A stretch of DNA of 64,000 nt, taken from positions 79,050,001-79,114,000 of the forward strand of contig OZ024741.1 of assembly GCA_964016885.1 (NCBI GenBank). Direction: 5' to 3'. Source of the DNA: Eledone cirrhosa. Taxonomy: Eukaryota. Of this stretch, positions 1 to 58,760 are shown piece after piece. The notes under the pieces were generated by a model. The model saw only the letters and a list, made by a program, of their open reading frames with translations, had not been told where the DNA came from and searched no databases. A program made the translations under genes and the position numbers. How positions within the stretch are numbered: position 1 is the stretch's first letter; each line of letters begins with the position of its first letter.

Positions 1-2052
1 TATGCTGACACGGATATTCCGCATCCTAGTTCGCGCGGGACTCCCCTCAACGTCTCCAGTTTGTGCAGTAATGGCTCGAGAGTCAATACGTACAAGAGGG
101 ACGAGAGGGGACATCCTTGGCGGACCGAGCGCATGATGTTGAGCGGTTCCGAAAGGTGACCGTTCACTCTCACCACAGAGCAGATGTCGCTGTGCATGGC
201 AGCGATCCAGCCTCTGAAGACGGGCCCAAAGCCAGCCGCCCTCAGGACTGCGGCTAGGTAACGATGGTCGACCCTATCGAAAGCTTTCGACTGATCTAAA
301 TTGATCAAGGACCCACCCGTGCCAGGTTCCCTAGCTACCCTCTCTACGATGTATCGCATGAGGTGGAGGTTGTCGTGGATGGATCTGTCGGCAATCGCGC
401 ATGTCTGCGCGTCTCCCACCAGACCACCAATGACAAGCGCCAACCTCTTTGCTAGCACCTTGGCCAAAATCTTGAACTCTGTGTTTAGCAGAGTTATGGG
501 CCTAAAATTATCTATGTTATCCCCCTTGTTCGGATCCTTTCTCAGCAGCGCCACAGCTCTTCGGCTCACAGAGCTGGGAATTCTCCAGTTCTGTTGCCAG
601 TTGCAGTAGAGGTCCGCCAAGAGGCCTCCGAACAAGTCTGGCATCTGTACGTAAAGTTCATAGGGCAGAGCATCCAAACCAGGCGATTTATCCCTTGTGC
701 AGCTAGTCATTGCCTCCCGTACTTCAGCGGCTGTTATCGGCTTTTCGCAACACTCCGCCTCAGTGGCCGAGAGCCGCGGCAGTCCGTCGAGGTAGACACT
801 AAAGTCCATCCCTCGATCCGGCCCGCCGCTTCCCCCGAACAACTGAGCGAAGTGTCGCTGAAAAGCTTCACACATTTTCCCGGGATCGAGTAGCATGCGC
901 CCGTCGTGGTCCACCAAAGACCGGATCGTGGCTTTGTTGCCACGACGCGCCTCCGCCACTCGGGCCCAATGAACGGCTTTCGTCCCTTCGTGTCTGGGAG
1001 CACGGACCCTTGCTCTGACAACGCAGCATTCGTGCTTTGCATTGAAGAATTAGTCAAGGGCCAATTTCGCCGCAAGTACGTCGGACGCGATGCCTTTGCT
1101 AAGCGCCTCGCTTTCTAACTAGTTCTCCCTCTGCTCTGTTTTTCTCTGTTGCTAAAGCCTTACTAAACCCAATGGACTCTATTCTAATTGCTCTTTTCAG
1201 AGCAAACCAACACTTGTTGTTGACGATGGCCCCCGTCAACGCCTGCTTAACTAGTTCGCTAATCCGGCCTCTGTAGGCCTTGCGCGCTGGTAAGGAAGCG
1301 TTTAGCTTCCAGTAGCCGGGTCCTCGTCTATGAAGCCTATCTAAGTCAAGCACACATATCACGAATTTGTGGTCCGTGTAGCTGACTATCTTGAATTGTG
1401 GACAGCCTATGCTAGACATATCTATTTCTCTACAAAATACTCTATCTAGATATGATCTGGATGACCCTATGCGATTTGTCCAAGTCCACATTGGCACATT
1501 CGGGAAATCCAATCGGTACCTGTCAGACAGTTCAAAACGCATGAGCAGGTTGGTGAGGCTCTTGCACCCTCCTCCCATATTCGCTAATCCCACACAGTCC
1601 CAGCGTGCATCTAAGATCCCGTTCCAGTCACCCACCAACACTAAAGAGCTGGACGTTCCAAGAGAGGTCTCCAGACGCCGGAAGAAATCAGGCCGCCCTG
1701 CTCCTGTCGAGGCATAGACGGCCACTAGCCTGAAAACTTGCCCGTCTCCGCTGGTCACGTCCAGCAGCACCAACTTACCTTCTGGGCCAAGGAAGATGGC
1801 CCGTATGGCGAGATCTAAACCTCTCCGAAAAAGCACAGCAACTCCTCCACCCCGCGATCCCGGACGGCTGGGAGATGCGTACACATCGTAGCCACCGAAG
1901 ATCGGTGCAAAGGCCCTTGCTGCGGTGATTCTGGACTCGCTGATGGCCACTACATATATGTGTAGTGACCTGAGGTCGTTGAGCAGGTGGCCCTGCTTCC
2001 ATGACGACCCCAAGCCACGCGCATTTATGCTGCCTATTCTGAGTGAGGTCAT
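1..2052 (-). pseudogene. Tx1 ORF2 (APE endonuclease + RT), frameshifted near 1100
   Basis: ORF 1099..2052 has SINARG, GDWN, YLDRVF, TDHK and GYWKLN. RT motifs (DQSKAFDRVDH, RQGCPLS, SAY) continue to base 1. Confidence 0.9.
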
Positions 2053-2086
2053 GTTGAAATGGAGTGGGGAAGATGGGAAAGACCAC

Positions 2087-4057
2087 TTACCTTACTTCTC
2101 GTAGAGGAAGCATGGTTTCTCCATCCTTTCCACTGCTTCTGGAATCCTCCGGAAGGATGTCCTTATAAATCCTCCTGGAGAGTGCTTGTCGGAAGTCTCC
2201 GATGTCTTTGGGGAATTTTTGTTTTAGTGTCGTGTACGTTTTCTGTGTTATGCGAGTGATTTGTATGTGTGTAGGTAGTGTGAACTTTTGGGTTGTTGTG
2301 TAGTCTATTTCTGTGATGCTGGTGTTGTGTTGCATGTAGTGTAATAATTGGTTGTTGTTCAAATTTAATGCTGTGTAGTGTGTATCGTTTTGGTTGTTTT
2401 GTTTTGTTTGTGTTTGTTGTGGGTTTGTTTCTGTTACGCTCTTTGGTGACTTTTGTGGTGTAGGTGATGGTGGTGTTGGGGTTAATGATGGTGATGGTGT
2501 TGGTGTTTGTGGTGATGGGGTTGGTGATGCTGGTGTGGATGGTGGCATATCTGTCCTAACTTTTTTGTTTGATAATTTATTTGTTTCCCTCTGTATTTTG
2601 TTTTTGGAGGGGGAAGGAAGAGAATTTTTTCTTTTTTTGGTTTCTTTTTTTCTTTTTTCTGATACCGTTTCCCACTCCTCGTCGTCACAATCTGTCTCCA
2701 GTTGCGATAAGCCGGGGAGTGGAAAATCCTCCACAGGCGTTGGTTTTGGTTGTGACGTTGTGGATGGTGTCGGCGCTGGTGCTAGTTCTGGCGCGTTGGG
2801 TGGTGGTGGTGTTGGTTTTGCTACCGTTGCTGGGGTTGTTGCTGTTACAGTTGTTTCTGTTGTTGCTGCTACAGTTGTTGCTGCCATTTCTGCTGGTGGT
2901 GGTGTTGATGGTTGAGTCACTGGGGTGGGTAACAGAGGTGGCCTCAACCTTTTAGCCTGAGGGCAGAAAGCCCTTAGGTGGGTTCCTTCACCACAAACGA
3001 CACACCTAGGTCTTCTGCCCCCGACGATTACGGTGAAGTGGCTGCCGTCAGTGAGGTCTATTACCTCTGGGATTTCCTCAATGCTTTTATGGTCCGCTTG
3101 GATCAGGAGCTCCATCCCAGATCCGGACTAGTTATCCTGCTTTTCTTTCGCTATTTCAATTATCTTGGTGTTGGCCTCGATGCCGGCGAGGACGGCAGCC
3201 ATTAGCCAGGAAATTTCGATGGCCAGTGGAACGTGGGTCACCCTGATCTTCACAAGTCTCTGGCCACAATAGCTTGGGACGAATGTGAAGTCGTCACTTC
3301 TTAATGGGGCCATGGAGTGTTCTCTGGCCTCCTGTGGTGTTTAAAAGAACACGTCCACGGTTCCATACTTCTGCCCACGTCTGATGTGGATTTTCTTTGC
3401 CCACACATGTCCTAAAGCTTTTTGGATTTGGGACTCGGATGCCCGTTCCACTCGGCGCGATTTTATGTTAATTGTCCGATAAGACACCGTGCATAGGCGA
3501 CGTTGCTCCATTTTAATAGGTGGGTAGGGCGGGGGTGAGGGGTAGGTGGGGTGAGGCTGACCCTGTACCCATCTTTCTTTACCATTCCTTTGGCTTCTAC
3601 TAATTCCTCCTGAGTTACCTGGATCGCTTCGCACGTTTTTGCTACTCTGGCAAAACTCAGGTAGTTTTCTTAATTTCATTGTTGCTGTTGTTGTTATCGT
3701 TATTTTTGTTATTGTTAATTTTAGTTTCAGTTGTGGTGGTGGTGGTGGCGTCAGTGGTGTTCGGTGTGGAAGAGTTCATTTTGGTTGAATTCATTTCGAT
3801 ATCACGAATTAATTTATTTTTTCTTTTGTTTCTGTTGTCGCTGTGGTGGTGGTGGTGGTGGTGGTGGTTGTTGCGGTGGTGGCGGCTTTAACACCTGCAG
3901 TCATTGGTAATGGCGGGAAATGAACGTCTGTCTGAGACAAATTTAAAATATTGCTACTGCTTATATTTCCAGTATTGGCAAACGTAGCAATATTTACAAT
4001 GGTGGTGTCGGTGTGAGGTGTTAGATTGTGAGGAAGGAGTGACTCTGAGACATCCAT
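2087..4057 (-). pseudogene. Tx1 ORF1 (gag-like, CCHC, Pro/Thr-rich), broken into several ORFs
   Basis: ORFs 3809..4057, 3341..3679, 3128..3313 and 2087..3115 are collinear with ORF1 of copy F. Confidence 0.88.
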
Positions 4058-4304: not shown

Positions 4305-7300
4305 GCTTTCTTTATTGGCCACAACGGCTGACATCAAGAAAAACATTACAGACGGCACAGGACGGTACAGGACGATACGATGTGGGTTTTGTGCGTATAA
4401 ATATTTTTATTATTTATATAAGAAAAGAAAAAAAAGGTCATAGAAACATATATATAAACAATAAAAATGAAAATTGAAACAATGAAAAATTCCCCAATAG
4501 GGGGGAAACCTCCGAGGGTTACTCGTGGCGAAAACCACACAAAAGACCACGGCTACCCTCACCACCAGGGCAAGCGCCTTCTCTCAATTTTTCAATCTCT
4601 CAAACTACAGACGTATATTCAGAGCGGTCCCGTTCATTCGGACCATTCTCGCTACATTCACCCACCTTTCAATAAACTTGCTAGAAAGCAGCACTTGCCT
4701 CTCCACCCTGATTTTCTTCTACAAGTGAAACTTGAAAAAGTTAATTAGGGATTCGCCGAAGAGGAAAGTGTCTGTCTTTAACCCTTTTAACCTTGTCCAC
4801 CACACAATCTCTTTCGCCATGGCCACCAGGCAGATGAAAACCGCCTGCCCTTCCTCCTCGAAGGAAGACGGCGAGACCATCTGCACAATGGACTCAGTCG
4901 ACAACCGGATCAGTCCCACACGCGACAGCAACTGTTCGACATAGCTCCACAAGTCAGCAATGCTCGGGCACTGAACGAGTGCGTGCACGACGATTTCGTC
5001 GCTCTGCGCTGATCTTTGACAGGCTCGGCTGACGGCACTTCCGTGCCTGTAGAGCTTATCTCGAACCGGCAGCGCTCCCCGGTAGCACTACCAGGCCAGG
5101 GATTTTTGGAAGTTATCCATAGGCCATGGACTGAAAGTTCTCCGGAAGAGAGCAAACAGCTGATCTTCCTCGACGCTCAGGATCTCTCCGAAAATGCCGT
5201 CGCTCTTCCCCTCCACTATTCCTATATAGAACGCCGAGGTAGATGTTCCACCGATACTGGTGTCCAGCTGGCAGAGGGCAGTGAGCGCCTGGAGACATTC
5301 CAGTTTCCAAGCTCTATCCCTCGGTCTTTTTCTGACGCCCACATCGCCCCCAGTTTGTGCAGTAACGGCTTGAGAGCCAATACGTACAAGAGGGACGAGA
5401 GGGGACAACCCTGGCGGACTGAGCGCATGATGCTGAACGGCTGCGACAGGTGACCGTTCACCCTCACAACTGAGCAGATGTCGCTGTACATTGCTGCGAT
5501 CCAACCCCTGAAAACGGGCCCGAAACCCGCTCCCTCGAGGACCGCCGCCAGGTACCGATGCTCGACCCTATCGAAAACTTTGGATTGATCCAAGTTGATC
5601 AGGGCCCCACCCGTGCCAGGTCCTTAACCAGCCTCTCTATGATGTATCGCATGGGGTGGAGGTTGTCGTGTATGGATCTGTCCGGACTGACACATATCTG
5701 CGCCTCTCCCACCAGACCCTTGACGACAAGCGCCAACCTCGTTGCTAACACCTTTGCCAAAATCTTGAACTCTACGTTTAGCAGGGTTATGTGCCTGAAA
5801 TTATCGATAACATCCCACTTGTTCGGGTCTTTTCTCAGCAGCGCCACTGCTCCCCGGCTCACAAAACTGGGAATACTCCCGTTCTGCTGCCTGTTGCAGT
5901 AGACGTCTGCCAAGAGTTCACCGCATAAATGCATAAAGCTCGTAGGGCAGACCATCCAAACCTGGCGATTTACCCCTTGTGCAGTTAGCCATCGCTTCCC
6001 GTATTTCACCGGCTGTTATTGGCTTTTCGCAATACTGTGCTGCGGTCGTCGAGAGCCGAGGAAGTCCGTCGAGGTATGCACTGAAGTCCATGCCCCGATC
6101 CGGGCCGCCGCTGTTCCCGAACAGTTCAGCAAAGTGCTACTGAAAAGCTTCACACATCCGCATGGGTTCGAGCATCCCGCACCCGTTTTGGTCAGACTAA
6201 GACCTAATTGTGGCCCTGTTGCCACGTCGCGCCTCTGCCACCCGGGCCCATTGGACGGCTTTTGTCCCTCGTGTTTCAGAGCACGCGCTCTAGCTCTGAC
6301 AACGCAGCTTCGTGTTTTGCGTTGAAGAATTGGTCGAGTGCCAATCTCGTCAGACGCCGCTTCTAGCTTTCTGACTAGCCCTCCCTCTACTCTATTTTCC
6401 TCTATCACTACTCCTTTGTTAAACCTAATCGACTCTACTTTAATTGCCCTTTTTAGGGCGAACCACCACCTGTTGTTTACGACCGCTCCCGTCAACGCCC
6501 GCTTAACTAATACGCTAATCCGGTCTATGTAGGCTTTGCGCGCCGGGAAAGACGCGTTCAGCTTCCAGTAACCGTGTCCTTGTCTATGAAGTATCTCTAT
6601 GTCGATCTCACAAATCACAAATTTGTGGTCTGTGTAGTCGACTATTTTAAATTGTGGACAACTTATACTAGCCTTATCTAGTTCTCTGCAGAATACCCTA
6701 TCGAGATACGATCTGGATGACCCGATGCGGTTTGTCCATGTCCACATTGGCACATTCGGGTGATCCAGTCGATACCTGTCAGACAGTTCAAAACATCTGA
6801 GCAGGTTGGTGAGGCTCTTGCACCCTCTTCCCATATACACTAGCCCCACACAATCCCAGCGTGCATCCAAGATACCGTTCCAGTCGCCCACTAACACTAA
6901 AGACCGGGACGTTCCAAGAAAGGTCTCTAGACGTCTGAAGAAATCTGGCCGTCCTGCCCCTGCTGGGGCGTAGACGGCTACTAGCCTGAAAGCATTGCCT
7001 TCGCTGCCGGTCACGTCCAGCACCACCGACTTACCTTCTGGGTCTAGGAAGATGGCCTGTATGGCGAGTCCAAGCCTCTCCGAAAAAGCACGGCAACCCC
7101 TCCCGCCGATCCTGGACGGCTGGGAGATGCGTATACATCGTAGCCGCCGAAGATCGGTGCGAAGGCTTGTGCTTCGGTGATTCTGGTCTCACTGATGGCC
7201 AGCACATCTATGTTTAGTAACCTGAGGTCGTTGAGCAGGTGACCCTGCTTCTAAGATGACCCCAGGCGACGTACATTTATACTGTCTATTCTAAGTACGG

Positions 7301-9060
7301 TGATGTTGGATGAAAAACGGGGTAAGTGAGAAAGGGTCACTTACCTTGATCGTGTGGTGAAGGGACAGTAGAACCGTCCCATTCGCTGGTCATGGGTGTT
7401 TCCAAGAGGATGTCAGTGTATATCGTCTTGGTAACCGACCCTCTGAAGTCTCCAACTGCGTTGGGGAATTTTTATTTTAAAGGTTTGTATTGTTCTATTG
7501 AGATTTCAATGATGCTTATGTTTGTCGGGAGAGTTCTTGGTGTTGGTGGGGTGTAGTAGTTTTTTTCTGTGATGTCTGTGTGCTGCTTTATATATTGTAT
7601 GAGTTCTTTTTTTGCCATGTTTATGGCTGTGTACTTTTTGGGGGGAGGGGTGATTTTGTTGCTGTTTTCTTCTTGTTGCTGTTTGGTGTGTGTGTCTTGT
7701 TGTGTTTGCGTTGTTGTTTTTTTGGTGATGCTGGTGGTGGTGTGGTTGTTGTTGTCAGTGGTGCTAGTGGTGGTGTTGCTGCAAGTTTCCTTGCTGCCTT
7801 TACCCCTCTTTGTATGCCTTCGCTTTTGGAGGGTGAATCTAAGTGGTTTTTTTGTTTTTTGTTTTTTTGTGGCAGACCATTTGCCATTTCACTCTCGCCT
7901 CAAACTCCATGTCGGATTCTGTGGCGTCTGGAAGGGGTATGTGCTCCACGGCTGTTGGTGGTGGTAGTGGAGCCCTCTTCGGCAATTTTATTGCTGGTGT
8001 AGCTACTTTAATGTAGCTATTGGTGTTGCCGCCACTGATGATGCTGCTTTAGTTATCCTTGGCCTTGGTACGAGTACAACGGACGTTGCCCTCCTACTCA
8101 CCGTGGAAGGGGCCTCTGCGTTTGTTGCCTGCCCTGCTCTTGGTAGCAGTGGACCAGGTATTGGAAGGAGCGGGGCCTTCTTCTTCGCTGTCTTTTGCGG
8201 GCAAAAGGCTCTGAGGTGACCCTTCGACCCACAGAGATAACATTTTGGCCGTCTTCCTTCTACACTTATAGGGAGTTGGAGTACTTCCTCGATGTCTATC
8301 ATATCGGGGATAGCCTCGATACATTCCTGGTCAGTTTTTAGAAGCATTTGCATGCCTATACCTGACCAGTTCTCTCTCCCTATTTTCTCTACTTGCAGCA
8401 TGGTCGTCCTGTCCTCGATTTCAGCAAGGACAGACGCGGCCAGCCAAGGTATGGGCACGTCGGGTGGGACCTGGGTCACTTTGACCCTCACAATTTTCTG
8501 CCCGCGGTAGGAGGGCATCAAGACTATCTCCTCACTCTTTAGGGTTTCCAAAGAGTGAGACTGCTTCCTGGGGTGGCGAAGACTACGTCCACTGTGGCGT
8601 ACTTTCTGCCTCGGGCGATGTTGGTTTTGCGTGCCCAGACGCACCCCAAGGCCTTTTGGATTTGAGCCTCCGTGGCTCTCTCCACCCGATGTTAGATTTT
8701 GCTTACGGTGCGGTAAGTCATCATCCGTAGCTGCTGGTCCTTGAAAAAATCGGGTGGAGGTTTCAGGGAGATTCTATTGGCGCTTCTTGTCACCATGGCT
8801 CTTGCGACTGCCATCTCCTCCTCTGTTACCAACACTGTCTCGATATTTCGGGCGACACCTGCAAAGAAGTGGTCTCTTTTTCAGCAGCACCACTATTGTT
8901 GCCGCTACTGGTCTTACTGGTGGTGCTGAGATCGCTATTACAGGTATCGATGTCATTGTTGATGTCTTCGTTGAAGAAGAAGAAGAAGAAGAAGAAGAAC
9001 AACAACAACAACAATCACATTTCAAACTTTAGAGTATTCATACTAAATTTAGTTATTTCG
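4305..9060 (-). mobile_element. Tx1-clade LINE, copy B (same subfamily as C); 5' UTR missing, ~0.7 kb deletion removing YADD
   Basis: ORF1 fragment 8003..8644 (CYLCGSKGHLRAFC), endonuclease 6016..7026, RT pieces 5222..6009 and C-terminal 4719..4988. The 3' UTR has AATAAA followed by (ATT)n. The 5' boundary is approximate. Confidence 0.9.
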
Positions 9061-10899: not shown

Positions 10900-10930
<31 letters not shown>

Positions 10931-14141: not shown

Positions 14142-14176
14142 CATACGTACGTACATACATACAGACATACATACAT

Positions 14177-36188: not shown

Positions 36189-39100
36189 GGTCTGTTCGAG
36201 CGTCCGTTTTGCTCGCTCCCAGTAAGTCGCTTTATTTACCTGTTATAATTATTTGTTGTTAAATTTTTCTTGTTGTGTAAGGGATATATTGGAGTTTGCC
36301 CTGTGAAGGGGAAAGTATAATATTTGGGCCTTTTGGCCCAAATATTTGATTAATATTTGAACATTTTACTTTTAAAAATAAACAAAACAAAAACATGGCA
36401 GAGCCACGCCCACCAACAATATGTCTGCTGTCGTGTGACAACGGCGTAAAAGTTGAGAGGAGGGTTACAGAAATTCATACAACAAACACCACAAACAACA
36501 TGAACAAATACAACAACACTGAGAACACTAATTTAAAAAAAATTACCACACCAACTACAACAATAACAGTGACAACCAAAATACAGACAACAGAAAAAAA
36601 TGACAACAAATGTAACAACGATATTAACACCACTAACAAGAAAATAAACAGCGACAACACCAACAACAATACAAATTGCACCGAAAACAACAACGGTGGC
36701 ACCAAAAACACAACCAACTACAACAGTGATAACAGCAACAACACCAACAACACCGTTTGTAGCAGTAGCAACAGCAACAGCACCAACAACAAGACCAGTA
36801 GCAGCAGTAGCGGCAATCATAATGGTGCCGCTGAAAAAGGGGCCACTTCTTTCGCAGGTGTGGGCCGAAATATAGAGACAGTGCTAGTCACGGAGGAGGA
36901 GATGGCAGTCGCAAGAGCCATGGTGTAAAGAAATGACAATAGAGTTTCCCTGAAATCTCCACCCGATTTCGTCAAAGAGTAGCAGCTGCGCACGGTGACT
37001 TACCGCACCGTAAGCAAAATGTCACATCGGGTGGAGAGAGCCACGAAGGCTCAAATCCAAAAGGCCTTTGGGCGCGTCAGGGCGCGCAAAACCCATATCA
37101 CCCGAGGCAGAAAGTACGCCACAGTAGACGTACTTTTCGCCACCCCACAAGAAGCGAAGTCTCACACTTTGGAAACCCTAAAGAGTGAGGAGATAGTCTT
37201 GGTGCCCTCCTACTGCGGGCAGAAAATTGTGAGGGTCAAAGTGACCCAGGTCCCACCCGACGTGCCCATACCTTGGCTGGCCGCGTCTGTCCTTGCTGGA
37301 ATCGAGGACAGGACGACCATGCTGCAAGTAGAGAAAATAGGGAGAGAGAACTGGTCAGATATAGGCATGCAAATGCTTCTACAAACTGACCAGGAATGTA
37401 TCGACGCCATCCCCGATATCATAGACATCGAGGAAGGACTCCAACTCCCTATAAGCGTAGAAGGGAGACGGCCAAAATGTTATCTCTGTCGGTCAAAGTG
37501 TCACCTCAGGGCTTTTTGCCCGAAGAAGAGAGCGAAGAAGACGGCCCCTCTCCTTTCAATACCTGGTCCGCTGCTACCAAGAGCAGGGCAGGCAACAAAC
37601 GCAGAAGCCCCTTCCACGGTGAGTAGGAGGGCAACGTCCGTTGCATCCGTACCAAGGCCACGGACAACTAAAGCAGCAGCATAAGTGGCGGCAACACGAG
37701 TAGCTGCACCAGCAACAAAATTGCCGGAGAGGGCTCCACTACCACCACCAACAGCCGTGGAGCACATACCCCTCCCAGACGCCACGGAATCCGACATGGA
37801 GTTTGAGGCGGGAGTGAAGTGGCAAACGGTCGGCGATAAAAAAGAAAAAAGAAAAACCCCTTAGCTTCACCCTCCAAAAGCGAAGGCACACATAGAGGGG
37901 TAAAGGCTGCAAGGAAACTTGCAGCAACACTACCATCATAACCATCACCACCACAAGCACCACCGCCAACAACAACCACACCACCACCAGCATCACTAAC
38001 AACACCAACAACGCAAACAAAACAAAACACACACACCAAACAGCAACAAGAAGAAAACAGCAACAAAATCCCCCCTCCCCCCAAAAAGTACACAGCCATA
38101 AACATGGCAAAAAAAGAACTCATACAATATATAAAGCAGCACACAGACATCACAGAAAACAAACTACTACACACCACCAACACCAAGAACTCTCCCGACA
38201 AACATAAGCATCATGGATATCAAAATAGAACAGTACAAACTTTTAAAACAAAAATTACCCAACACAGTTGGGGACTTCAGAGGGTCGGTTACCAAGAGGA
38301 TATACACTGACATCCTCTTGGAAATGCCCATGACCAGCCAAATGGACGGTTCTACCACACGATCAAGGTAAGTGACCCTTTCTCACTTACCCCGTTTTTC
38401 ATCCAACATCACCGTACTTAGAATTGACAGTATAAATGTACGTCGCCTGGGGTCATCTTAGAAGCAGGGTCACCTGCTCAACGACCTCAGGTCACTAAAC
38501 ATAGATGTGGTGGCCATCAGTGAGACCAGAATCTTCGAAGCACGAGCCTTCGCACCGATCTTCGGCGGCTACGATATATACGCATCTCCCAGCCGTCCAG
38601 GATCGGGGGGAGGGATTGCCGTCCTTTTTCGGAGAGGCTTGGATCTCGCCATACAGGCCATCTTCCTAGACCCAGAAGGTAAGTCGGTGGTGCTGGACGT
38701 TCCGGCACCGAAGGCAACGCTGTCAGGCTAGTAGCCGTCTATGCCCCGACAGACACAGGACGGCCAGATTTCTTTAGACGTCTAGAGACTTTCTTGTAAC
38801 GTCCTGCTCTTTCGTGTTAGTGGGAGACTGGAACGGTATCTTGGATGTACGCTGGGATTGTGTGGGGCTAGTGGATAGGGGAGGAGCCTCACCAACCTGC
38901 TCAGACGTTTTGAACCGTCTGACAGGTATCGAATGGATCATTCGAATGTGCCAATGTGGACATGGACAAACCACAACGGGTCATCCGGATCGTATCTCGA
39001 TAGGGTATTCTGCAGAGAACTAGATAAGGCTAGTATAAGTTGTCCACAATTTAAAATAGTCAACTACACAGACCATAAATTTGTAATCTGCGAGATCGAC

Positions 39101-42054: not shown

Positions 42055-42288
42055 ATTATTATTATTATTATTGAATGCTATGGTTGACGGAGGCTCGGCT
42101 CTGTAAGGTACTGTAAATTTTGAACGCTTTAACAATTGTAAATTGTTTAAAACTTAGACCAACTTGTAGACAAAAACACCCTCCTCCTCGTGAGAGGGGT
42201 CTTTCTGCCCGTTATTTGGCTCTTCGAGGTTAAATAACTGCTTATTGGGGGTTTGTACCCAATATTTATTTTAAACAAAAAAAACAAC

Positions 42289-44389
42289 ATGGCTACGAAA
42301 AAGAATTTGCATAGGTCACTCCCACTCATTCCGTCTTCTTCTTCCTCAATCGTCACTACAGCAGAGAGAAGATTGTCTCTCTCCCTCCCTTCTTTAAATG
42401 TGTCTCTCTCCCTCCCTTCTCTTTCGCAAGTGACGAAAGAAAAGAAAAGTCTCGTGCAAAGCATGCAAGGTTTCTCCACGACGACGACGACAGCGACGAA
42501 ACAGGTGTGCGGGAAATACGAAAACCCAGTTCATTCGTCTGACGTCAGGAATAATAGCAGTAGCAGCCGTAATAACAACAGCAACAGTGACAATGAAAAC
42601 AAAAGTAGCAGCCGCAACAGCATCACCAGCAGCATAAACAACAACAGCATTAGCAGCAGCAACACCAACAACAACCACAGCAACAGCGGCGAAGGCAGTA
42701 GTCGTAGTACCTGCAGCAACAACAAAAGTAACAGCAGCTCTAACGACAACTACAACAGCAGCAAAGAAAAACCAATCTCATTTGCAGGTATTGCGAAAAA
42801 CTTGGAAACAATCCTCATAACAAATGAGGAATTAGAGGAAACGAAGATGATGGTGACAAAGAATGGACACCGAGCAATCTGCAAGGCAGCGGAAAATTTT
42901 TTCGAAACCCAACAGCACTGTACGGTCACGTACCGTACAGTAAGTACAAAATCCCGTAGGGTGGAAAGAGCCACAGAGGCCCAAATACAAAAAGCCTTGG
43001 GGTCTGTGTGGCAGCGGAAAACGCACATCACCCGAGGCAAAAAATATGCCACCGTAGACTTACTTTTTGCCACACCCCAGGAGGCAAAGGCCCAATCCGT
43101 AGTGACCCTAAGGAGCGAAGAAATGGTGTTGGTGCCCTCCTACTGCGGGCAAAAAAATTGTGAGGGTCAAACTGACCCACGTCCCCCCCGGAATGGCCCC
43201 TTCTTGGCTGGCCGCGTCTGTCCTCGTCGGAATCGAGGACAAAACAACTGTACTGCAAGTACAGAAAAAAGTAAGAGAAGATTGGGTCGGCACCTCCATT
43301 GAGATGCTAATCCAAACCAACCAGGAGTGCATCGAAGCTATCCCGGATGTGATAGACTTCGATAACGGCACTCAACTGCCGATAAGTGTTGAGGGCAAAC
43401 GCCCGAAATGCTTTCGCTGTGGATTGAAGACTCACCTCAGGGCCTTCTGCAACGAGAAGACCCTGAGAAAGGAGAAAACCCCCCTCCTTCCGAATCCGGC
43501 TCCACGGCTACCAGCAACAGGACAAGCGGCAACCAGGAACGATAGGTCCGTGGCACCCATACCCACGCCACGGAAATCAAAAACAGCAGCAGCAGTGGAA
43601 ATATTAACAACAACAACAGCAATACCAAATGCAGCTGCAACAGAGACTCCAGTGCAAACATCACCAACAACAACAAGTGAAAGAGTGGAGCTGGTACCCC
43701 TCCCCGACCTCACAGAATCAGACATGGAGTGTGAGGTGGGAGAGGGATGGCAAAAGGTCGTAAGAAGGCACAAACGCAGAAGCAGCGCATCGTCGCCTTT
43801 GAAAAGGGAGGAAAGAAATGAGAAAAGGGTAAAGTCTACTGCAAAGAGACCCACAGCAGCAACACCACAAACACCATCACCACCCACACTAGCACCACCA
43901 TCACCACCGGCGACAACCCCACCGCCAACAACACCTTCAACACCACCACCACAAGCACCAACATCGCAAACACAACAACAAAACACACACACCCAGCAAC
44001 AACGACAAGAAAATAGCAGAACCACACCCCACCCACAGAAAAACAAATGCACGGCAATAAATACACACAACAAGAAACTAATGACTTACATAATTGAACA
44101 CACAGACATTTCACAACAGGACTACATAATACCAGCACCAATCAAAACGCCAACTAACTTAAGACTGCTAAAAATAGCACAGAAACAATACACAAACATT
44201 AAAACGAAATTCCCCAACGCAGTTGGTGATTTCAGGGACCTAGGAGGAACCATCAATCGAAGAGTATATTCAGACATTCTCTTAGAAGAGCCGACGACCA
44301 GCCGAAGGGACGATTCAACGGTCCCTTCACCAGACGATCAAGTGAAAAGGGATGTAAAAACCATCCCTCCTCTACCAAAAGTACGGTAA
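42289..44389 (+). pseudogene. Tx1 ORF1 with one frameshift in the A-run at about 43151-43158
   Basis: ORFs 42253..43302 and 43160..44389; CFRCGLKTHLRAFC. Confidence 0.9.
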
Positions 44390-44423
44390 GTGGTCTTTCC
44401 CATCTTTCCACTCTATTTTAAAC

Positions 44424-47400
44424 ATGACCTCACTCAGAATAGGCAGCATAAATGCGCGTGGCTTGGGGTCGTCATGGAAGCAGGGTCACCTGCTCAACGA
44501 CCTCAGGTCACTAAACATAGATGTAGTGGCCATCAACGAGACCAGAATCTCCGAAGCACGGGCCTTCGCACCGATCTTCGGCGGCTACGATGTGTACGCA
44601 TCTCCCAGCCGTTCTGGATCGGGTGGAGGAGTTGCTGTGCTTTTTCGGAGAGGTTTGGATCTCGCCATACGGGCCATCTTCCTGGACCCAGAAGGTAAGT
44701 TGGTGGTGCTGGACGTGATCAGCAGAGACGGGCAAGCTTTCAGGCTAGTGGCCGTCTATGCCCCGACAGGAGCAGGGCGGCCTGATTTCTTCCGGCGTCT
44801 GGAGAACTTTCTTGGAACGTCCCGCTCTTTAATGTTAGTGGGCTACTGGAACGAGATCTTAGATGCACGCTGGGACTGTGTGGGATTAGCAGATAGGGGT
44901 GGAGGGTGCAAGAGCCTCACCAACCTGCTCAGGCGTTTTGAACTGTCTGACAGGTACCGATTGGATTTCCCGAATGTGCCAATGTGGACTTGGACAAATC
45001 GCATCGGGTCATCCAGATCATATCTAGATAGAGTATTTTGTAGGGAAATACATAGGTCTAGCATAGGCTGTCCACAATTCAAGATAGTCAGCTACACGGA
45101 CCACAAATTCGTGATCTGTGTGCTTGACTTAGATAGGCTTCATAGACGAGGACCCGGCTACTGGAAGCTAAACGCGTCCTTACCAGCGCGCAAGGCCTAC
45201 AGAGACCGGATTAGCGAACTAGTTAAGCGGGCGTTGACGGGGGCCATCGTCAACAACAAGTGGTGGTTTGCTCTGAAAAGAGCGATTAGAATAGAATCGA
45301 TTAGGTTTAGTAAGGCTTTAGCAATAGAGAAAAATAGAGCAGAGGGAGAACTAGTTAGAAAATTAGACGAGGCGCTTAGCAAAGGCATTGCGACCGACGT
45401 GCTTGCGGCGAAATTGGCCCTTGACCAATTCTTCAATGCAAAGCACGAAGGCTGCGTTGTCAGAGCAAGGGTGTGTGCTCTCAGACACGAGGGGACGAAA
45501 GCCGTTCAATGGGCCCGAGTGGCGGAGGCGCGTCGTAGCAACAAAGCCACGATCCGGTCTTTGGTGGACCACGACGGGCGCATGCTACTCGATCCCGGGC
45601 AAATGTGTGAAGCTTTTCAGCGACACTTCGCTCAGCTGTTCGGGGGCAGCGGTGGGCCGGGTAGAGGGATGGACTTTAGTGTCTACCTCGACGGACTGCC
45701 GCGGCTCTCGGCCACTGAGGCGAAGTGTTGCGAAAAGCCGATAACAGCCGCTGAAGTAAGGGAGGCAATGACTGGCTGCACAAGGGGTAAATCGCCTGGT
45801 TTGGATGGTCTGCCCTATGAACTTTACGTACATATGCCAGACTTGTTCGGAGGTCTCTTGGCGGACATCTACTGCAACTGGCAACAGAACGGGAGAATTT
45901 CCAGCTCTGTGAGCCGAGGAGCGGTGGCGCTGCTGAGAAAGGATCCGAACAAGGGGGATAACATAGATAATTTCCGGCCCATATCTCTGCTAAACACAGA
46001 GTTCAAGATTTTGGCCAAGGTGCTAGCAAAGAGGTTGGCGCTTGTCGTTGGTGGTCTGGTGGGAGAGGCGCAGACATGCGCCATTCCCAACAAATCCATC
46101 CACGACAACCTCCACCTCATGCGATACATCGTGGAGAGGGTAGCTAAGGAACCTGGCACGGGTGGGTCCTTGATCAATTTAGATCAGTCGAAAGCTTTCG
46201 ATAGGGTCGACCATCGTTACCTAGCGGCAATCCTAGTGCGGCTGGCTTTGGGCCCGTCTTCAGACGCTGGATCGCTGCCATGCACAGCGACATCTGCTCT
46301 GTGGTGAGAGTGAACGGTCACCTGTCGGAACCGTTCAACATCATGCGCTCGGTCCGCCAAGGATGTCCCCTCTCGTCCCTCTTGTACGTATTGACTCTCG
46401 AGCCATTACTGCACAAACTGGAGACGTTGAGGGGAGTCCCGCGCGAACTAGGATGCGGAAGATCGGTGTCAGCATATGCCGACGATGTCACCGTAGTGGT
46501 GTCGAACGCCAAACACATCGAGCCGATCGGCACTACACTAAGAGAATACGAAGCGGTGACAGGAGCAATGATCAACCAGGAAAAGTCAGTGGGCCTGCAG
46601 CTCGGCACCTGGAGAGGCAGGTCCATGCCGTCCAACAGCGTCGTCGGACGCTGGACGGACCGGTTAAATTGCTAGGGGTCTGGTTCGGTCCGGACCTCCA
46701 GACGGACAAAAACTGGGACGAGGTGACGAGCAGGGTGGCTTCTCTCACCCAGAAATGGGCGGAGAGGAAGCTATACCTGAAAGGTCGAGCGGAGGTGGCT
46801 AACGCGTACATCGCGTCTGTCATCTGCTACCTCCTGACCGTCGTACCTTGTCCTAAGCCTCGTCTGACTGCGCTGGAGCGTTTGCTCTTTCGCTTTTTGT
46901 GGAAGGGACGTGCTCCGATGGTCAGGCGGTCCATCTGTTGTCAACACTCGCTACGTGGAGGGCTGGGCATGCCGTGGCTGATGATGCGCAGGCACGCGCT
47001 CAGGCTACGACATGTCCACCTCTTCCTCGACGGTGATCAGGTGTGGTCGCCGTTTGCTAGACACGTATTTCCCCAGCTCGTTTCCTTGACGGAGCTGCAG
47101 TCCTGGGTCAAGCGAAGACCGAGAGGGAGCGCCTGGAGACTGGAATGTCTTCAGGCGCTCACAGCCCTCGACCAATCGGGCAATGTGATCGGTGGAAACT
47201 CCACCTCGGCGTTCTATAGAGGATTAGTGGAGGGGAAGAGCGACGACGTACTTGGGGAAACTCTAGGCGTCGACGAAAATCAACTAGTCAATCTCTTCGG
47301 AAGAACTTTCGGGCCAGGGCCTATGGACAATTTCCAGAAATCTCTGGCCTGGCAGTGCTACCGAGGAGCCTTGCCAGTTCGGGATAAACTCTACAGGCAT

Positions 47401-47838
47401 GGAGGTGCCGTCAGCCGGGCATGTCCGAGATGCGCGCAGGGCGACGAAACCGTCCTGCACGCACTCGTCCAGTGTCCGAAAATTGCTGACTTGTGGGTTT
47501 ATGTCGAACACCTGCTGTCGCGTTTAGGACGGATCCGGCTATCATCTGAGTCCATCGTGAGGATTGCCCCGTCCTCCTCCTTTAGCCGGGAAGGGCAGGC
47601 AGTTTTTATCTGTCTGGTGGCCATGTCGAAAGAGATAGTATGGTGGACACGTTTGAAAGGGCTGAAGCCGAGCACTTACCTCTTCGGTGATGCTCTGATT
47701 GACTTTTTCAAATTTCATTTGAAAAGGAAAATCAGAGTAGAGAGGGAAGTGCTCTCTTCCCAGCATTTTGTTGAAAGATGGGTGAGAGAAGCAAGAATGG
47801 CCCGAGTGAATGGGCCGACTCTGAGTATATATCTGTAA
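44424..47838 (+). pseudogene. Tx1 ORF2 (APE + RT + C-terminal Cys/His motif), two frameshifts
   Basis: ORFs 44424..46307, 46280..46675 (SAYADD) and 46363..47838 (CPRC..ETVLHALVQC). The endonuclease GDWN is changed to GYWN. Confidence 0.93.
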
Positions 47839-48098
47839 ACTAAAGGTGTAAAACTGGGAGAGGGCACTTGCCTTGGTGGTCATGGTCATTGTGGCTTTTT
47901 ACTGGGCTTTCTCCACAAATGTCCCTCCGAAGTCTCCCCCCTATTGGGGAATTTTTCATTGTTATTTTCATTGTTATTTTTGTTACATCCTCTGTTTTTG
48001 TTTTTTTACACGCAGAAATGCCCATTTGTACCGTCCTGCATTGTCCTGCACTGTCCTTAATGTCTACTTTATGTAAACCCTTGTGGTTAATAAAGAAA

Positions 48099-48142
<44 letters not shown>

Positions 48143-51100
48143 GGTGACCTACGTAGTAAATCGCATTATCGTGAGCTCCGCAAAGGTTTATTATTTTCAG
48201 TTGTCTAAAATTGCCATTTATGAAAATTTTTTATTGCTAACTGTATATAAGTGCACATAAGTGCACATTGATTTCTGAAAAGGACACTCAAAAAGATTGG
48301 GGCCTTGTGCCCAAAATTTAAACTTTTTTAATTATCAAACAAAAAAAAAATTTCTTTGAAAAATCATGGCCGACTAGCAGCTGAACCCAGTAGCTGAGAG
48401 CCTTCCTCACAAACTAACACCTCACACCGACACCACCATTGTAAATATTACTACGTTTGCCAACACAAAAAATATAAGCAGTAGCAATATTTTAAATTTG
48501 TCTCAGGCAGACATTCATTTCCCGCCATTACCAATGACTGCAGGTGTTAAAGCCGCCACCTCCACCACCACCACAGCGACAACAGAAACAAAAGAAAAAA
48601 ATAAATTAACTCGTGATATCGAAATGAATTAAACCAAAATAAACTCTTCCACACCGAACACCACTGACGCCACCACCACCACAACTGAAACTAAAATTAA
48701 CAATAACAAAAATAACGATAACAACAACAGCAACAATGAAATTAAGAAAACCACCCTGAGTTTTGCCAGAGTAGCAAAACGGTGCGAAGCATTCCAGGTA
48801 ACTCAAGAGGAATTAGAAGAAGCCAAAAAAATGGTAAAGCTAGATGGGTACAGGGTCAGCTTCACCCCCCCCCCACACCTCATAAAATGGAGCATCGGCG
48901 CCTATGCACCGTGTCTTATCGAACGATTAACATAAAATCGCGCCGAGTGGAACGGGCATCCGAGTCCCAAATCCAAAAAGCTTTGGGACATGTTTGGGCA
49001 AAAAAACCCCACATCAGACGTGGGCAGAAATATGGGACCGTGGGCGTGTTCTTTTAAACACCACATGAGGCCAGAAAACACTGCATGGCCCCATTAAGAA
49101 GTGACGACTTCACACTCGTCCCAAGCTATTGTGGCCAGAGACTCGTGAGATCAGGGTGACCCACGTTCCACCGGTCATCGAAATTCCCTGGCTAATAGCT
49201 GGCGTCTTCGCTGGCATTGAAGCCAACACCAAGATAATCGAAATAGCGAAAGAAAAGCAGGAGAACTGGTCCGGATCTGGGATGGAGCTCCTGATCCAAG
49301 CGGACCAAAAAAGCATTGAGGAGATTCCAGAGGTAATAGACCTCACTGAGGGCAGCCACCTCCCCGTAATAGTCGAGGGCAGAAGGCCTAGGTGTGTTGT
49401 TTGTGGTGAAGGAACCCACCTAAGGGCTTTCTGCCCTCAGGCTAAAAGGTTGAGGCCACCTCTCTTACTCATCCCAGTGACTCAACCATCAACACCACCA
49501 GCCGAAGAGATGGCAGCAACAACTGTAGCAGCAACAACCCCAGCAACAGTAGCAAAACCAACACCACCACCACCCAACGCGCCAGAACTAGCACCAGCGC
49601 TACACCATACACCACGCCACAACCAAAACCAACGCCTGTGGAGGATTTTCCACTCCCCGACCTATCGCAATTGGAGACAGATTGTGACGACGAGGAGTGG
49701 GAAACAGTATCAGGAAAAATGAAAAAAAGAAAAAGAAACCAAAAAAGAAAAAAATCCCATTCCTTCCCCCTCCAAAAACAAAATACAGAGGGAAACAAAT
49801 AAACTATCAAACAAAAAAGTTAGGACAGCTATGCCACCATCCACACCAGCATCACCCAAACACCAACATCATCACCATCATTAACCCCAACACCACCATC
49901 ACCAACACCACAAAAGTCACCAAAAAGCGAAACAGAAACAAACCCACAACAAACGCCAACAAAACAAAACAACCAAAACGATACACACTACACAGCATTA
50001 CATTTGAACAACAACCAATTATTACACTACATTCAACACAACACCAGCATCACAGAAATAGACTACACAACAACCCAAAAGTTCACACTACTTCCACACA
50101 TACAAATCACTCGCATCACACAGAAAACGTACACGACACTAAAATACAAATTCGCCAAAGACATCGGAGACTTCCGACAAGCACTCTCCAGGAGGATTTA
50201 TAAGGACATCCTTCCGGAGGAGGCCACAAGCAGTGAAAAGGATGGACAAACCATCCTTCCTCTACGAGAAGTAAGGTAAGTGGTCTTTCCCATCTTTTCC
50301 ACTCCATTTCAACAAGACCTCACTCAGAATAGGCAGCATAAATGCGCGTGGCTTAGGGTCGTCATGGAAGCAGGGCCACCTGCTCAACGACCTCAGGTCA
50401 CTAAACATAGATGTAGCGGCCATCAGCGAGACCAGAATCTCCGAAGCACGGGCCTTCGCACCGATCTTCGGCGGCTACGATGTGTACGCATCTCCCACCT
50501 GTCCGGGATCGGGGGGTGGAGTTGCTGTGCTTTTTCGGAGAGGTTTGGATCTCGCCATACGGGCCATCTTCCTGGACCCAGAAGGTAAGTTGGTGCTGCT
50601 TGACGTGACCAGCGGAGACGGGCAAGCACTCAGGCTAGTGGCCGTCTATGCCCCGACAGGAGCAGGGTGGCCTGATTTCTTCCGGCGTCTGGCGACCTTT
50701 CTTGGAACGTCCAGCTCTTTAGTGATAGTGGGCGACGGGAACGGGATCTTAGATGCACGCTGGTACTGTGTGGGATTAGCGGATAGGGGAGGAGGGTGCA
50801 AGAGCCTAACCAACCTGCTCAGGCGTTTTGAACTGTCTGACAGGTACCAATTGGATTTCCCGAATGTGCCAATGTGGACTTGGACAAATCGTATCGGGTC
50901 ACCCCGATCATATCTAGATAGAGTATTTTGTAGGGAAATAGATAGGTCTAGCATAAGCTGTCCACAATTCAAGATAGTCAGCTACACGGACCACAAATTC
51001 GTGATCTGTGTGCTTGACTTAGATAGGCTTCATAGACGAGGACCCGGCTACTGGAAGCTAAACGCGTCCTTACCAACGCGCAAGACCTACAGAGACCGGA

Positions 51101-53986: not shown

Positions 53987-56900
53987 GGCGACCTACGTAG
54001 TAAATCGTATCACCGTGAGCTCCGCAAAGGTTTGTTATTTCCGTTTGTTAAAAATTGCCATTTATGGAAAATTTTTATTGTTAACTCTATATAAGCGCAC
54101 ATACATTGTTTTCCGAAAAGAACACCCAAAAAGATTGGGGCCTTGTGCCCAAAATTTAAACTTTTATGATTATCAAAAAATTGCTTTGAAAAAAAATGGC
54201 TACTTCACCTCTGCACCAAGCAGCTGAGAGCCATCCTCACAAACTAACACCTCACACCGACACCACCATTGTAAATATTACTACGTTTGCCAACACTAAA
54301 AATTTAATCAGTAGCAATATTTTAAATTTGTCTCAGGCAGACATTTATTTCCCGCCATTACCAATGACTGCAGGCGTTAAAGCCGCCACCACCACCACCA
54401 CCACCGCGACAACAGAAACCAAAGGAAAAAATGAATCAACTCGTGATATCGAAATGATTTCAACCAAAGTGGACTCTTCCACACTGAACACCATTGACGT
54501 CACCACCACCACAACTGAAGCTAAAATTAATAATAACAAAAATAACGATAACAACAACAGCAACAATGACATTAAAAAAACCACCCTGAGTTTTGCCAGA
54601 GAAGCAAAACAGTGCGAAGCATTTACGGTAACTCAGGAGGAATTAGAAAATGCCAAACAAATGGTAAAGAAAGATGGGTACAGGGTCAGCCCCCCCCACA
54701 CCTAATAAAATGGAGCATCGGCGCCTATGCGCCGTGTCGTATCGAACAATTAATGTAAAATCGCGCCGAGTGGAACGGGCATCCGAGTCCCAAATCCAAA
54801 AAGCTTTGGGACATGTGTGGGCAAGAAAAACCCACATCAGACGTGGGCAAAAGTATGGAACCGTGGACATGGTCTTTGAAACACCAGAGGAGGCTAGAGA
54901 ACACTCCATGGCCCCATTAAGAAGTGACGACTTCACACTCGTCCCAAGCTATTGTGGCCAGAGACTCGTAAAGATCAGGGTGACCCACGTTCCACCGGCC
55001 ATCGAAATTCCCTGGCTAATAGCGGCCGTCCTCGCCGGCATCGAAGCCAACACCAAGATAATAGCAATAGCAAAAGAAAAGCAGGAGAACTGGTCCGGAT
55101 CTGGGATGGAGCTCCTGATCCAGGCGGACCAAAAAAGTATTGAGGAGATCCCAGAGGTAATAGACCTCACTGACGGCAGCCACCTCACCGTAATTGTCGA
55201 GGGCAGAAGGCCTAGGTGTGTCGTTTGTGGTGAAGGAACCCACCTAAGGGCTTTCTGCCCTCAGGCTAAAAGGTTGAGGCCACCTCTCCTACCCACTCCA
55301 GTGACACAACCATCAACACCACCAGTAGCAGAGATGGCAGCAAAAACTGTAGCGGCAACAATAGAAGCAACTATAACAGCAACAACCCCAGCAACAGTAG
55401 CAAAACTAACACCACCACCACCCAACGCTTCAGAACTAGCACCAGCGCCTACACCATCCACCACACCACTACCAAAACTAACGCCTGTGGAGGATTTTAC
55501 ACTCCGCGGCCTATCACAACTGGAGACAGATTGTAACGACGAAGAGTGGGAAACGGTATCAGGAAAAAAGAAAAAAATAAACCAAAAAAGAAAAAATTAT
55601 CTTCTTTCGCCCTCCAAAAACAAAATACAGAGGGAAACAAATAAATTAACAAACAAAAAAGTTAGGACAGATATGCCACCATACACACCAGCATCACCAA
55701 CCTCATCACCCCAAACACCAACACCATCACCATCATTAACCCCAACACCACCATCACCTACACCACAAAAGTCACCAAAATGCGAAACAGAAACAAACGC
55801 ACGACAAACGCAAACAAAACAAACAACCAAAACGATACATACTACACAGCATTAAATATGAACAACAACCAATTATTACACTACATCCAACACAACACCA
55901 GCATCACAGAAAAAGACTACACAACAACCCAAAAATTCACACCACCTCCACACATACAAATCACTCGCATCACACAGAAAACGTACATGACACTAAAACA
56001 TAAATTCCCCAAAGACATCGGAGACTTCCGACAAGCACTCTCCAGGAGGATTTATAAGGACATCCTTCCTGAGGAGGCCACAAGCAGTGAAAAGGATGGA
56101 AAAACTGTCCTTCCTCTACGAGAAGTAAGGTAAGTGGTCTTTCCCATCCATTTCAACATGACCTCACTCAGAATAGGCAGCATAAATGCGCGTGGCTTGG
56201 GGTCGTCAAGGAAGCAGGGCCACCTGCTCAACGACCTCACGTCACTAAACATAGATGTAGCGTCCGTCAGCCAGACCAGAATCTCCGAAGCACGGGCCTT
56301 CGCACCGATCTTCGGCGGCTACGATGTGTACGCATCTCCCACCCGTCCGGGATCGGGGGGTGGAGTTGCTGTCCTTTTTCGGAGAGGTTTGGATCTCGCC
56401 ATACGGGCCATCTTCCTGGACCCAGAAGGTAAGTTGGTGGTGCTTGACGTGACCAGCGGAGACGGGCAAGCATTCAGGTTAGTGGCCGTCTATGCCCGAC
56501 AGGAGCAGGGTGGCCTGATTTCTTCCGGCGTCTGGCGACCTTTCTTGGAACGTCCAGCTCTTTAGTGTTAGTGGGCGACTGGAACGGGATCTTAGATGCA
56601 CGCTGGGACTGTGTGGGATTAGCGGATAGGGGAGGAGGGTGCAAGAGCCTAACCAACCTGCTCAGGCGTTTTGAACTGTCTGACAGGTACTAATTGGATT
56701 TCCCGAATGTGCCAATATGGACTTGGACAAATCGTATCGGGTCACCCCGATCATATCTAGATAGAGTATTTTGTAGGGAAATAGATAGGTCTAGCATAAG
56801 CTGTCCACAATTCAAGATAGTCAGCTACACGGACCACAAATTCGTGATATGTGTGCTTGACTTAGATAGGCTTCATAGGCGAGGTCCTGGCTACTGGAAG

Positions 56901-58736: not shown

Positions 58737-58760
58737 TTATTATTATTATTATTATTATTA

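What the first reader, a model, noticed from the sequence alone, without database searches (positions are those of the whole stretch)
44381..44445. Tx1 ORF1 stop sits on a consensus splice donor; a 52-nt intron would fuse ORF1 to ORF2 in frame
Seen: all six Tx1 copies have G|GTAAGT at the end of ORF1 despite divergent ORF1s, followed by a pyrimidine tract. In D (44386-44437), E (50276-50327), A (2090-2039, minus) and F (56130-56171, 42 nt), excision to CTCAG| rebuilds an Arg codon and reads into IGSINARG. B and C have ATC and E has AAG in place of the ORF2 ATG. In B and C the motif lies in a perfect 9-bp hairpin (GGTAAGTGA/TCACTTACC) and the donor appears to be in a different phase, which weakens a universal model. 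Known: LINE ORF2 is normally made by reinitiation or frame overlap. Inference: this is either splice-gated ORF1-ORF2 fusion or a U1-binding/translational-coupling signal.
Basis: partly seen in the sequence, partly recalled or inferred. Interest (0 to 1): 0.72.

Follow-up and report, generated by a model that had tools for sequence, protein, structure and literature searches.

The report
LINE splice donor masked by helix
These jumping genes keep a near-perfect splice-start signal where their first gene ends, but no copy shows the proposed tiny intron removed; the signal is complementary to sequence 3.4 kb downstream, so the finished RNA is predicted to hide it, which likely lets only full-length transcripts escape splicing or nuclear retention.

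Summary
The motif is real; the fusion intron is not supported. All six window copies carry G|GTAAGT, but they are only two lineages. Across 13 genome-wide lineages of this Tx1-like LINE the donor core is near-invariant in all three ORF1 frames, while silent sites between deep lineages are 33-57% identical. It is the best U1-pairing site within 1.4 kb in 12 of 13. The proposed acceptor is ORF2's Leu-Arg codons: YAG in only 4 of 13, in frame in 9 of 13. No precisely intron-less copy was found against 5,121 unspliced ones. ORF2 keeps its own AUG except in one clade, and the window's ATC/AAG starts are copy decay. The junction pairs with sequence just behind the ORF2 stop, lineage-specifically (0 of 100,000 permutations). 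Best reading (0.45): a U1 docking site, open during transcription and masked once the 3' end is made; ORF2 is likely made by reinitiation. An ORF1-only splice remains possible. No run on record as RNA was available. The scan noted this donor before on other DNA of this genome (8 notes); the helix lead came from three of them and was tested here.

The parts
42073..48142 (+). Copy D, a full-length Tx1-like LINE between (ATT)n runs; ORF1 and ORF2 each carry one frameshift in this copy
   Evidence: Pfam Exo_endo_phos, RVT_1, zf-RVT
42289..44389 (+). ORF1 of D (one CCHC knuckle; ends ...PKVR-TAA)
   Evidence: intact counterpart L061 with a 702-codon open frame
44383..44391 (+). U1-type 5' splice-site motif ACG|GTAAGT, cut 44385/44386, overlapping the last Arg codon and the TAA stop
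   Evidence: host U1 5' end
44385..44413 (+). 5' arm of the predicted long-range helix (donor plus pyrimidine tract; predicted to extend upstream to about 44359)
   Evidence: core duplex -34.0 kcal/mol in this copy
44424..47838 (+). ORF2 (endonuclease, reverse transcriptase, zinc-binding) starting at its own ATG; the proposed acceptor CTCAG|A (44433-44438) is its codons 4-5
47845..47872 (+). 3' arm of the predicted helix, start of the 3' UTR (predicted to extend to about 47900)
2039..2093 (-). Copy A junction (phase 2, ATG kept)
7291..7347 (-). Copy B junction (phase 1, local 9-bp hairpin, ATC by decay)
38365..38421 (+). Copy C junction (phase 1, local 9-bp hairpin, ATC by decay)
50273..50327 (+). 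Copy E junction (phase 2, AAG by decay); its 3' arm lies behind 53710
56127..56171 (+). Copy F junction (phase 2, spacer 10 nt shorter than in A and E)

Best explanation
The motif at the end of ORF1 is a conserved match to the host's U1 snRNA and is complementary, with its pyrimidine tract, to the sequence just behind the ORF2 stop; it likely works as a U1 docking site that is open while ORF2 is being transcribed and is predicted to be hidden in a long-range helix once the 3' end is made. In this model U1 bound early would suppress premature polyadenylation, as shown for the plant retroelement EVD. Truncated transcripts lacking the 3' arm would keep an exposed donor and be spliced or retained, and only full-length RNA would mask the donor and be exported unspliced. 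ORF2 is likely translated from its own AUG by termination-reinitiation, not from a fused mRNA. Shown: motif conservation, frame independence, complementarity of the arms, lineage-matched pairing energies, absence of spliced genomic copies in the patterns searched. Inferred: U1 binding, helix formation in vivo, anti-termination, export gating, reinitiation.
For: Donor: positions -1, +1, +2, +3, +6 identical in 13 of 13 lineage representatives, -2 and +5 in 12 of 13; neighbouring columns 5-10 of 13. Only 2 of 18 four-fold sites are invariant, and four-fold identity between the three deep clades is 0.33-0.57. It sits in phase 2 (D, AEF, L, H, M, I1, I2, K, Janc, N), phase 1 (BC, G1) and phase 0 (J, G2), so no single codon constraint explains it. 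It is the strongest U1-pairing GT site within 1.4 kb either side of the ORF2 start in 12 of 13 (host U1). 93 of the first 100 copies picked by an ORF2 motif alone show it (counted by eye).

Helix: in 8 of 8 intact-type representatives the junction/3' UTR duplex (-55 to -65 kcal/mol) beat 200 of 200 shuffles and all ~130 other windows of the same element. In a 12 x 12 matrix cognate pairs are 11 kcal/mol better than row and column effects predict (0 of 100,000 permutations), with no such effect at three control offsets. One double change can be read directly: donor +5 G-C in D is U-A in lineage L (sequences).

No spliced copies: 0 precise GT-AG joins among 105 D/AEF copies with a non-canonical continuation; 0 vs 320 for lineage H.

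Precedents: U1 at a conserved donor suppresses premature termination of EVD (PMC5580714, passages); exposed 5' splice-site motifs cause U1-70K-dependent nuclear retention (PMC9074902, abstract).
Against: No run on record as RNA was examined, so U1 binding, export gating and absence of spliced RNA are untested. Global minimum-energy folds of 4-kb stretches kept the long-range helix in only 2 of 8 lineages. Raw duplex energy was best for the cognate partner in only 4 of 10 rows, because pyrimidine/purine tracts pair promiscuously. The ungapped pair table chose registers that disagree with the duplex folds in several lineages (L, G2, I1, I2, J), so it is not a formal covariation test. Poly(A) hexamers are barely skewed: 18 vs about 12 expected in the 600 nt before the donor, 6 vs about 11 in ORF2, 10 lineages. 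Lineages are related and phase 2 dominates, so stop-codon context contributes. An acceptor-like YTRTAG|G lies on the ORF2 stop in 8 of 9 lineages, which the splicing rival explains and this model explains only as the inner end of the helix.
Confidence: 0.45

Rival explanations
1. The donor is used for real splicing that removes all or part of ORF2 to make an ORF1-only mRNA (copia/EVD-like), with the helix setting the rate.
For: Acceptor-like site with a pyrimidine-rich upstream on the ORF2 stop in 8 of 9 lineages, and a YTAG acceptor-like site about 454 nt after the donor in 9 of 9. EVD precedent, where the spliced RNA terminates early and so would leave no genomic copy (PMC5580714, passages).
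Against: The abundant D/AEF lineages end ORF2 in TAA with no AG at the stop. No ORF2-less precise join was found for D/AEF, I1/I2/Janc, H (control 320) or J/K (no positive control run). The helix covers the donor and the exon side of the acceptor, whereas splicing-promoting helices usually lie inside the intron (own knowledge). The +454 site gives different frames in different lineages. ORF1 already has its stop without splicing.
Confidence: 0.26
2. The helix serves translation or particle assembly (holding the ORF2 start next to its stop and the 3' tail, gating reinitiation), and the donor look is a by-product of Arg-stop context plus helix constraint.
For: In H, I1, K and M the inner end of the predicted helix pairs the ORF2 start region with the ORF2 stop region. 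Lineage J has intact ORF1 and ORF2 but no ORF2 AUG, as tolerated in termination-reinitiation. RNA structure aids ORF2 translation in SART1 (PMC5972666, passages).
Against: Donor positions +2 to +4 are unpaired in the predicted helix of I1, I2 and J yet invariant or donor-compatible. Conservation stops at the U1-pairing edges and holds in three frames. 0 of 36 distant L1/Tx1 loci with an upstream ORF show GG-TAR-GT at the ORF1 stop.
Confidence: 0.18
3. A 39-66 nt micro-intron is removed to fuse ORF1 to ORF2, and this is how ORF2 is expressed.
For: In frame in 9 of 13 lineages. Codon 5 of ORF2 starts AG in 13 of 13 (58% of ORF2 Arg codons are AGR). The Janc clade lacks an ORF2 AUG.
Against: 0 precise intron-less copies vs 5,121, whereas about 2% of full-length human L1 copies derive from spliced RNA and L1 proteins act in cis (PMC5860796, passages). 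0 in the Cys-type lineages. YAG in only 4 of 13 and 5-10 pyrimidines of 15 before the AG. Out of frame in BC, G1, G2 and in J, which has a fully intact copy. No fused ORF1-endonuclease protein among the 9 long ORF1 relatives read (of 150 listed).
Confidence: 0.04
4. Neutral inheritance of an ancestral stop-codon context.
For: The six window copies are only two lineages; phase 2 with Arg-stop dominates.
Against: Seven of nine donor columns stay at 12-13 of 13 over a tree in which most four-fold sites have changed. The arms pair in a lineage-matched way.
Confidence: 0.05

Closest known systems
Tx1-clade non-LTR retrotransposons that target microsatellites (Kibi, Koshi; PMC4494074, passages) and L1-Tx1 families of Octopus vulgaris (PMC13282606, passages)
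   Same: Two ORFs, APE endonuclease + RT + zf-RVT, nearest solved structure human L1 ORF2p, insertion next to (ATT)n or (TATC)n and tandem arrays; ORF1 relatives named from octopods.
   Different: A donor at the ORF1 stop and a helix around ORF2 were not found in the passages read or in the listings of searches.
Arabidopsis Ty1/Copia EVD donor (PMC5580714, passages)
   Same: Conserved U1 site at the end of the structural-protein ORF; U1 suppresses premature termination of the full-length RNA.
   Different: EVD is an LTR element with a shown splice that creates the GAG stop. Here the stop exists unspliced, no splice is shown, and the donor is predicted to be masked by a 3.4-kb-range helix.
Human L1 ORF2 expression and SpIREs (PMC5972666 and PMC5860796, passages)
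   Same: Separate ORF2 behind a short spacer (63 nt in L1; 25-52 nt from donor to ORF2 start here), read by termination-reinitiation.
   Different: L1 splice products are copied back into the genome (about 2%); none was found here.
5' splice-site-motif nuclear retention by U1-70K/ZFC3H1 (PMC9074902, abstract)
   Same: An unspliced mature RNA with an intact donor would be a substrate.
   Different: Shown in human cells only; masking by a long-range helix as an escape is inferred here.

Membership tests
L1-group (Tx1-type) LINE | ORF2 with N-terminal APE endonuclease, RT and C-terminal zinc-binding domain | tested here: met
L1-group (Tx1-type) LINE | Separate ORF1 with CCHC knuckle upstream of ORF2 | tested here: met
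   CFRCGSKTHLRAFC in ORF1; no Pfam hit on the two ORF1 pieces
L1-group (Tx1-type) LINE | Target preference (here microsatellites) | tested here: met
   (ATT)n or (TATC)n directly at the 5' end in 8 of the 12 representatives and an (ATT)n flank further off in BC; target-site duplications not resolved
Tx1 clade proper | RT phylogeny grouping with reference Tx1 elements | not tested
   no named Tx1 references were fetched; the tree holds only this genome's lineages
Spliceosomal micro-intron fusing ORF1 to ORF2 | Strong conserved 5' splice site | tested here: met
Spliceosomal micro-intron fusing ORF1 to ORF2 | Conserved YAG acceptor with pyrimidine tract next to it | tested here: not met
   YAG in 4 of 13; 5-10 pyrimidines of 15
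Spliceosomal micro-intron fusing ORF1 to ORF2 | Conserved reading phase | tested here: not met
   in frame in 9 of 13
Spliceosomal micro-intron fusing ORF1 to ORF2 | Intron-less retrotransposed copies | tested here: not met
   0 vs 5,121; 0
Spliceosomal micro-intron fusing ORF1 to ORF2 | Spliced RNA reads; length above the host's minimum intron | not testable with these tools
   no run on record as RNA was listed; host intron sizes not measured
EVD-like U1 anti-termination / subgenomic splice | U1 site at the end of the structural ORF | tested here: met
EVD-like U1 anti-termination / subgenomic splice | Conserved downstream acceptor and cryptic poly(A) site | tested here: inconclusive
   candidate acceptors; no conserved hexamer in ORF2

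The most novel reading that the evidence does not exclude
An octopod LINE clade uses a splice donor as a length checkpoint: U1 loads at the ORF1 stop and protects transcription of ORF2, and a helix that can form only after the ORF2 stop is transcribed displaces U1, so that only full-length RNA is exported and retrotransposed.
Probability: 0.3. Interest if true: 0.8.

Novelty: new variant of a known kind. Interest (0 to 1): 0.56.

Why it matters
How bicistronic, intron-less LINE RNAs avoid premature polyadenylation, splicing and nuclear quality control, and how they set the ORF1:ORF2 ratio, is only partly known. Here a very young, abundant clade (thousands of near-identical copies, many with intact ORF2) carries a compact two-part signal whose arms and donor can be mutated and rescued separately, so the question becomes directly testable. 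It would extend U1 control of retroelement RNA from LTR elements (EVD) to LINEs and add a long-range RNA switch.

Tried and rejected
RNA evidence: no RNA holder listed. Contigs of six runs whose kind is not on record were laid on an intact copy. No joint at the proposed intron was listed; one search showed only 15 of 376 joints. Contigs show presence, not absence, so this is not used as evidence.

Acceptor before the poly(A) signal: rejected, AG absent in D.

Local hairpin as the conserved feature: z below -2 in only 4 of 13; the 9-bp hairpin is specific to BC.

Non-AUG start in B/C and E as a sign of splice gating: rejected as copy decay.

Apparent joins: L097 is an imprecise 30-nt deletion. 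L141 is a deletion at a 3-nt microhomology. One copy joins to ORF2 sequence behind an AG but keeps the donor's GT, so it is not a precise splice. L348 has non-ORF1 sequence upstream. Most one search hits are RT-domain look-alikes.

Searches for more distant lineages in this genome gave nothing or hits that by position and score appear to be the G lineage again (loci not opened). An ORF1 word search found nothing. One search used a wrong pattern and is uninformative; one search covered lineage K only.

Of 80 metagenome loci, 36 had an upstream ORF of 150 codons or more near ORF2 and were counted; the rest were dropped for lacking the motif, the flank or such an ORF.

Complementarity to 18S rRNA was considered and not tested. 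No structure or complex prediction was run. No paper supplements were read.
Full report
Setting. The window is a cluster of L1-group LINEs in a 3.0-Gb animal genome. ORF1 relatives are named from Octopus sinensis, O. vulgaris, O. bimaculoides and Argonauta hians, so the host is inferred to be an octopod. ORF2 has an APE endonuclease, RT and zf-RVT and is nearest to human L1 ORF2p among solved structures. The family is young: many of the 150 best of 26,052 candidates have open ORF2 frames of about 1,200 codons. Elements sit in tandem next to (ATT)n or (TATC)n. 'Tx1' is assigned by anatomy and target preference (PMC4494074, passages), not by phylogeny.

Observation. All six junctions are as described. 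D, E, A and F would fuse in frame; B and C would not. The four in-frame copies share the junction by recent descent: A, E and F match an intact D-type copy from about 45 nt before the donor onward and differ upstream. The ATC and AAG starts are decay. The acceptor CTCAG|A is codons 4-5 of ORF2.

Test of the fusion intron. A pattern bracketing the junction found 5,121 copies with a 40-65 nt spacer and 4 with 0-30 nt. Three of those four are unrelated sequence (the control gave 3) and one is an imprecise deletion; none has gap 0. The same test on lineages with Cys in the endonuclease motif gave 11 hits, none with gap 0 (no separate denominator). In human L1, proteins act in cis and spliced RNAs still make about 2% of full-length copies (PMC5860796, passages). 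If ORF2 came from a spliced RNA, intron-less copies should be common (inference; cis-preference is not tested for this clade). Across 13 lineage representatives the site at codon 5 is YAG in 4, AAG in 7 and GAG in 2, and the intron would be 39-66 nt. It is out of frame in BC, G1, G2 and J. The fusion model is rejected as the route to ORF2.

The donor is nevertheless under selection. Picking copies by an ORF2 motif alone, 93 of the first 100 listed show the donor (by eye; two more lie beyond the printed part and were seen). Against the host's own U1 5' end it is the strongest GT site within 1.4 kb in 12 of 13 lineages, fourth in L. Columns -1, +1, +2, +3, +6 are 13 of 13, -2 and +5 are 12 of 13, +4 is A or G, and neighbours are 5-10 of 13, while 2 of 18 four-fold sites are invariant. 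ORF1 crosses it in all three phases. It is clade-specific: 0 of 36 distant L1/Tx1 loci have it at the ORF1 stop. Two ORF1 proteins from other records end in GK or GKS, which would fit the phase-1 form; their DNA was not seen.

The pyrimidine tract is a helix arm. My scan for conserved acceptors showed an acceptor-like site on the ORF2 stop in 8 of 9 lineages. Earlier notes then suggested a long-range helix, which I tested. The stretch from 28 nt before the donor to the ORF2 start pairs with the 80 nt behind the ORF2 stop at -55 to -65 kcal/mol in 8 of 8 intact-type representatives, better than 200 of 200 shuffles and all ~130 other windows of the element. Window copy D gives -44.5 (0 of 200 shuffles, 0 of 131 windows), E -37.5 (0 of 200, 2 of 129) and C -45.0 (2 of 200, 0 of 129). 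With a shorter 5' arm the cognate was best in 6 of 8. In 12 lineages cognate pairs exceed row and column effects by 11 kcal/mol (0 of 100,000 permutations; controls at three offsets show none), ranking first in 8 of 12 rows. Against this, global folds kept the helix in 2 of 8, and the ungapped pair table is unreliable in several lineages. Donor +2 to +4 are unpaired in I1, I2 and J, so the helix alone does not explain the donor.

Is ORF2 spliced out? For D/AEF I listed all copies in which the ORF1 end is not followed by GTAA: 31, 26, 37 and 11 (the trailing letter of the patterns drops about a quarter, and exons starting GTAA are not covered). None is a precise GT-AG join. Lineage H gave 0 vs 320; I1/I2/Janc and J/K gave none. 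A spliced RNA that terminates early, as in EVD (PMC5580714, passages), would leave no such copies and is not excluded.

Mechanism. Shown: a frame-independent U1 match, a complementary 3' arm 3.4 kb away, lineage-matched pairing energies, and no spliced copies in the patterns searched. Inferred: U1 binds while ORF2 is transcribed and suppresses premature cleavage (EVD precedent; the hexamer skew here is weak). The helix then masks the donor, so that only full-length RNA avoids splicing and the nuclear retention that exposed donors trigger in human cells (PMC9074902, abstract). ORF2 is read by reinitiation as in L1 and SART1 (PMC5972666, passages), which fits the intact J copy without an ORF2 AUG. 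Confidence 0.45; ORF1-only splicing 0.26; translation-only helix 0.18; fusion 0.04; neutral 0.05.

Novelty. I found no description of this signal in the listings of searches or in the passages of the O. vulgaris repeat annotation (PMC13282606); subscription papers and Repbase entries were not searchable, and no supplements were read. The scan has noted the donor before on other DNA of this genome. Class: new variant of a known kind. Interest 0.56, because the feature is robust and testable but has no RNA or functional support yet.

Noticed in passing
L167 (minus strand), L168, L213-L222: Lineage J has an intact ORF1 (625-codon frame) and a 1,145-codon ORF2 but no ORF2 AUG: ATA overlapping the ORF1 TAG in J, ACA in the related copies. 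Suggests AUG-independent reinitiation or frameshifting.
   Followed up: partly
window 50232 onward vs 42073-44340; D and A/E/F share ORF2 at 92-95% but have very different ORF1s; the exchange point lies about 45 nt before the donor, just upstream of the helix arm.
   Followed up: partly
representatives: Two target classes in the clade: (ATT)n for D, AEF and BC; (TATC)n for M, I1, I2, K, J and N. Head-to-tail arrays have a period of about 6 kb.
   Followed up: partly
window 44694, 50584, 56428, 38678, 1773 (-), 7029 (-): A second GGTAAGT about 270 nt into ORF2 (Pro-Glu-Gly-Lys codons) in all six window copies; it reads GGTAAGC in the intact copy L061.
   Followed up: no
about 454 nt behind the donor in D-type ORF2: Acceptor-like pyrimidine tract + YTAG in 9 of 9 lineages, on Leu-Val/Ala codons with the less common YTA Leu codon.
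   Followed up: partly
L223, L228, L240-L245 (metagenome contigs): Distant L1/Tx1 elements with a long pyrimidine tract and CAG shortly before the ORF2 ATG, resembling a 3' splice or trans-splice acceptor, without a donor at the ORF1 stop where that stop was seen.
   Followed up: no
window 58628-61903 (-); fragments near 12416-17474 (+): A different non-LTR element (RT, Pfam RVT_1) inserted behind copy F, and further RT fragments.
   Followed up: no
window 10350-11170: Long CATA/TACA-type microsatellite that gives spurious open frames.
   Followed up: no
P0001: An Octopus sinensis tectonic-3-like gene model includes 61 residues of this clade's endonuclease, ending where the second donor-like site lies in D.
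   Followed up: no
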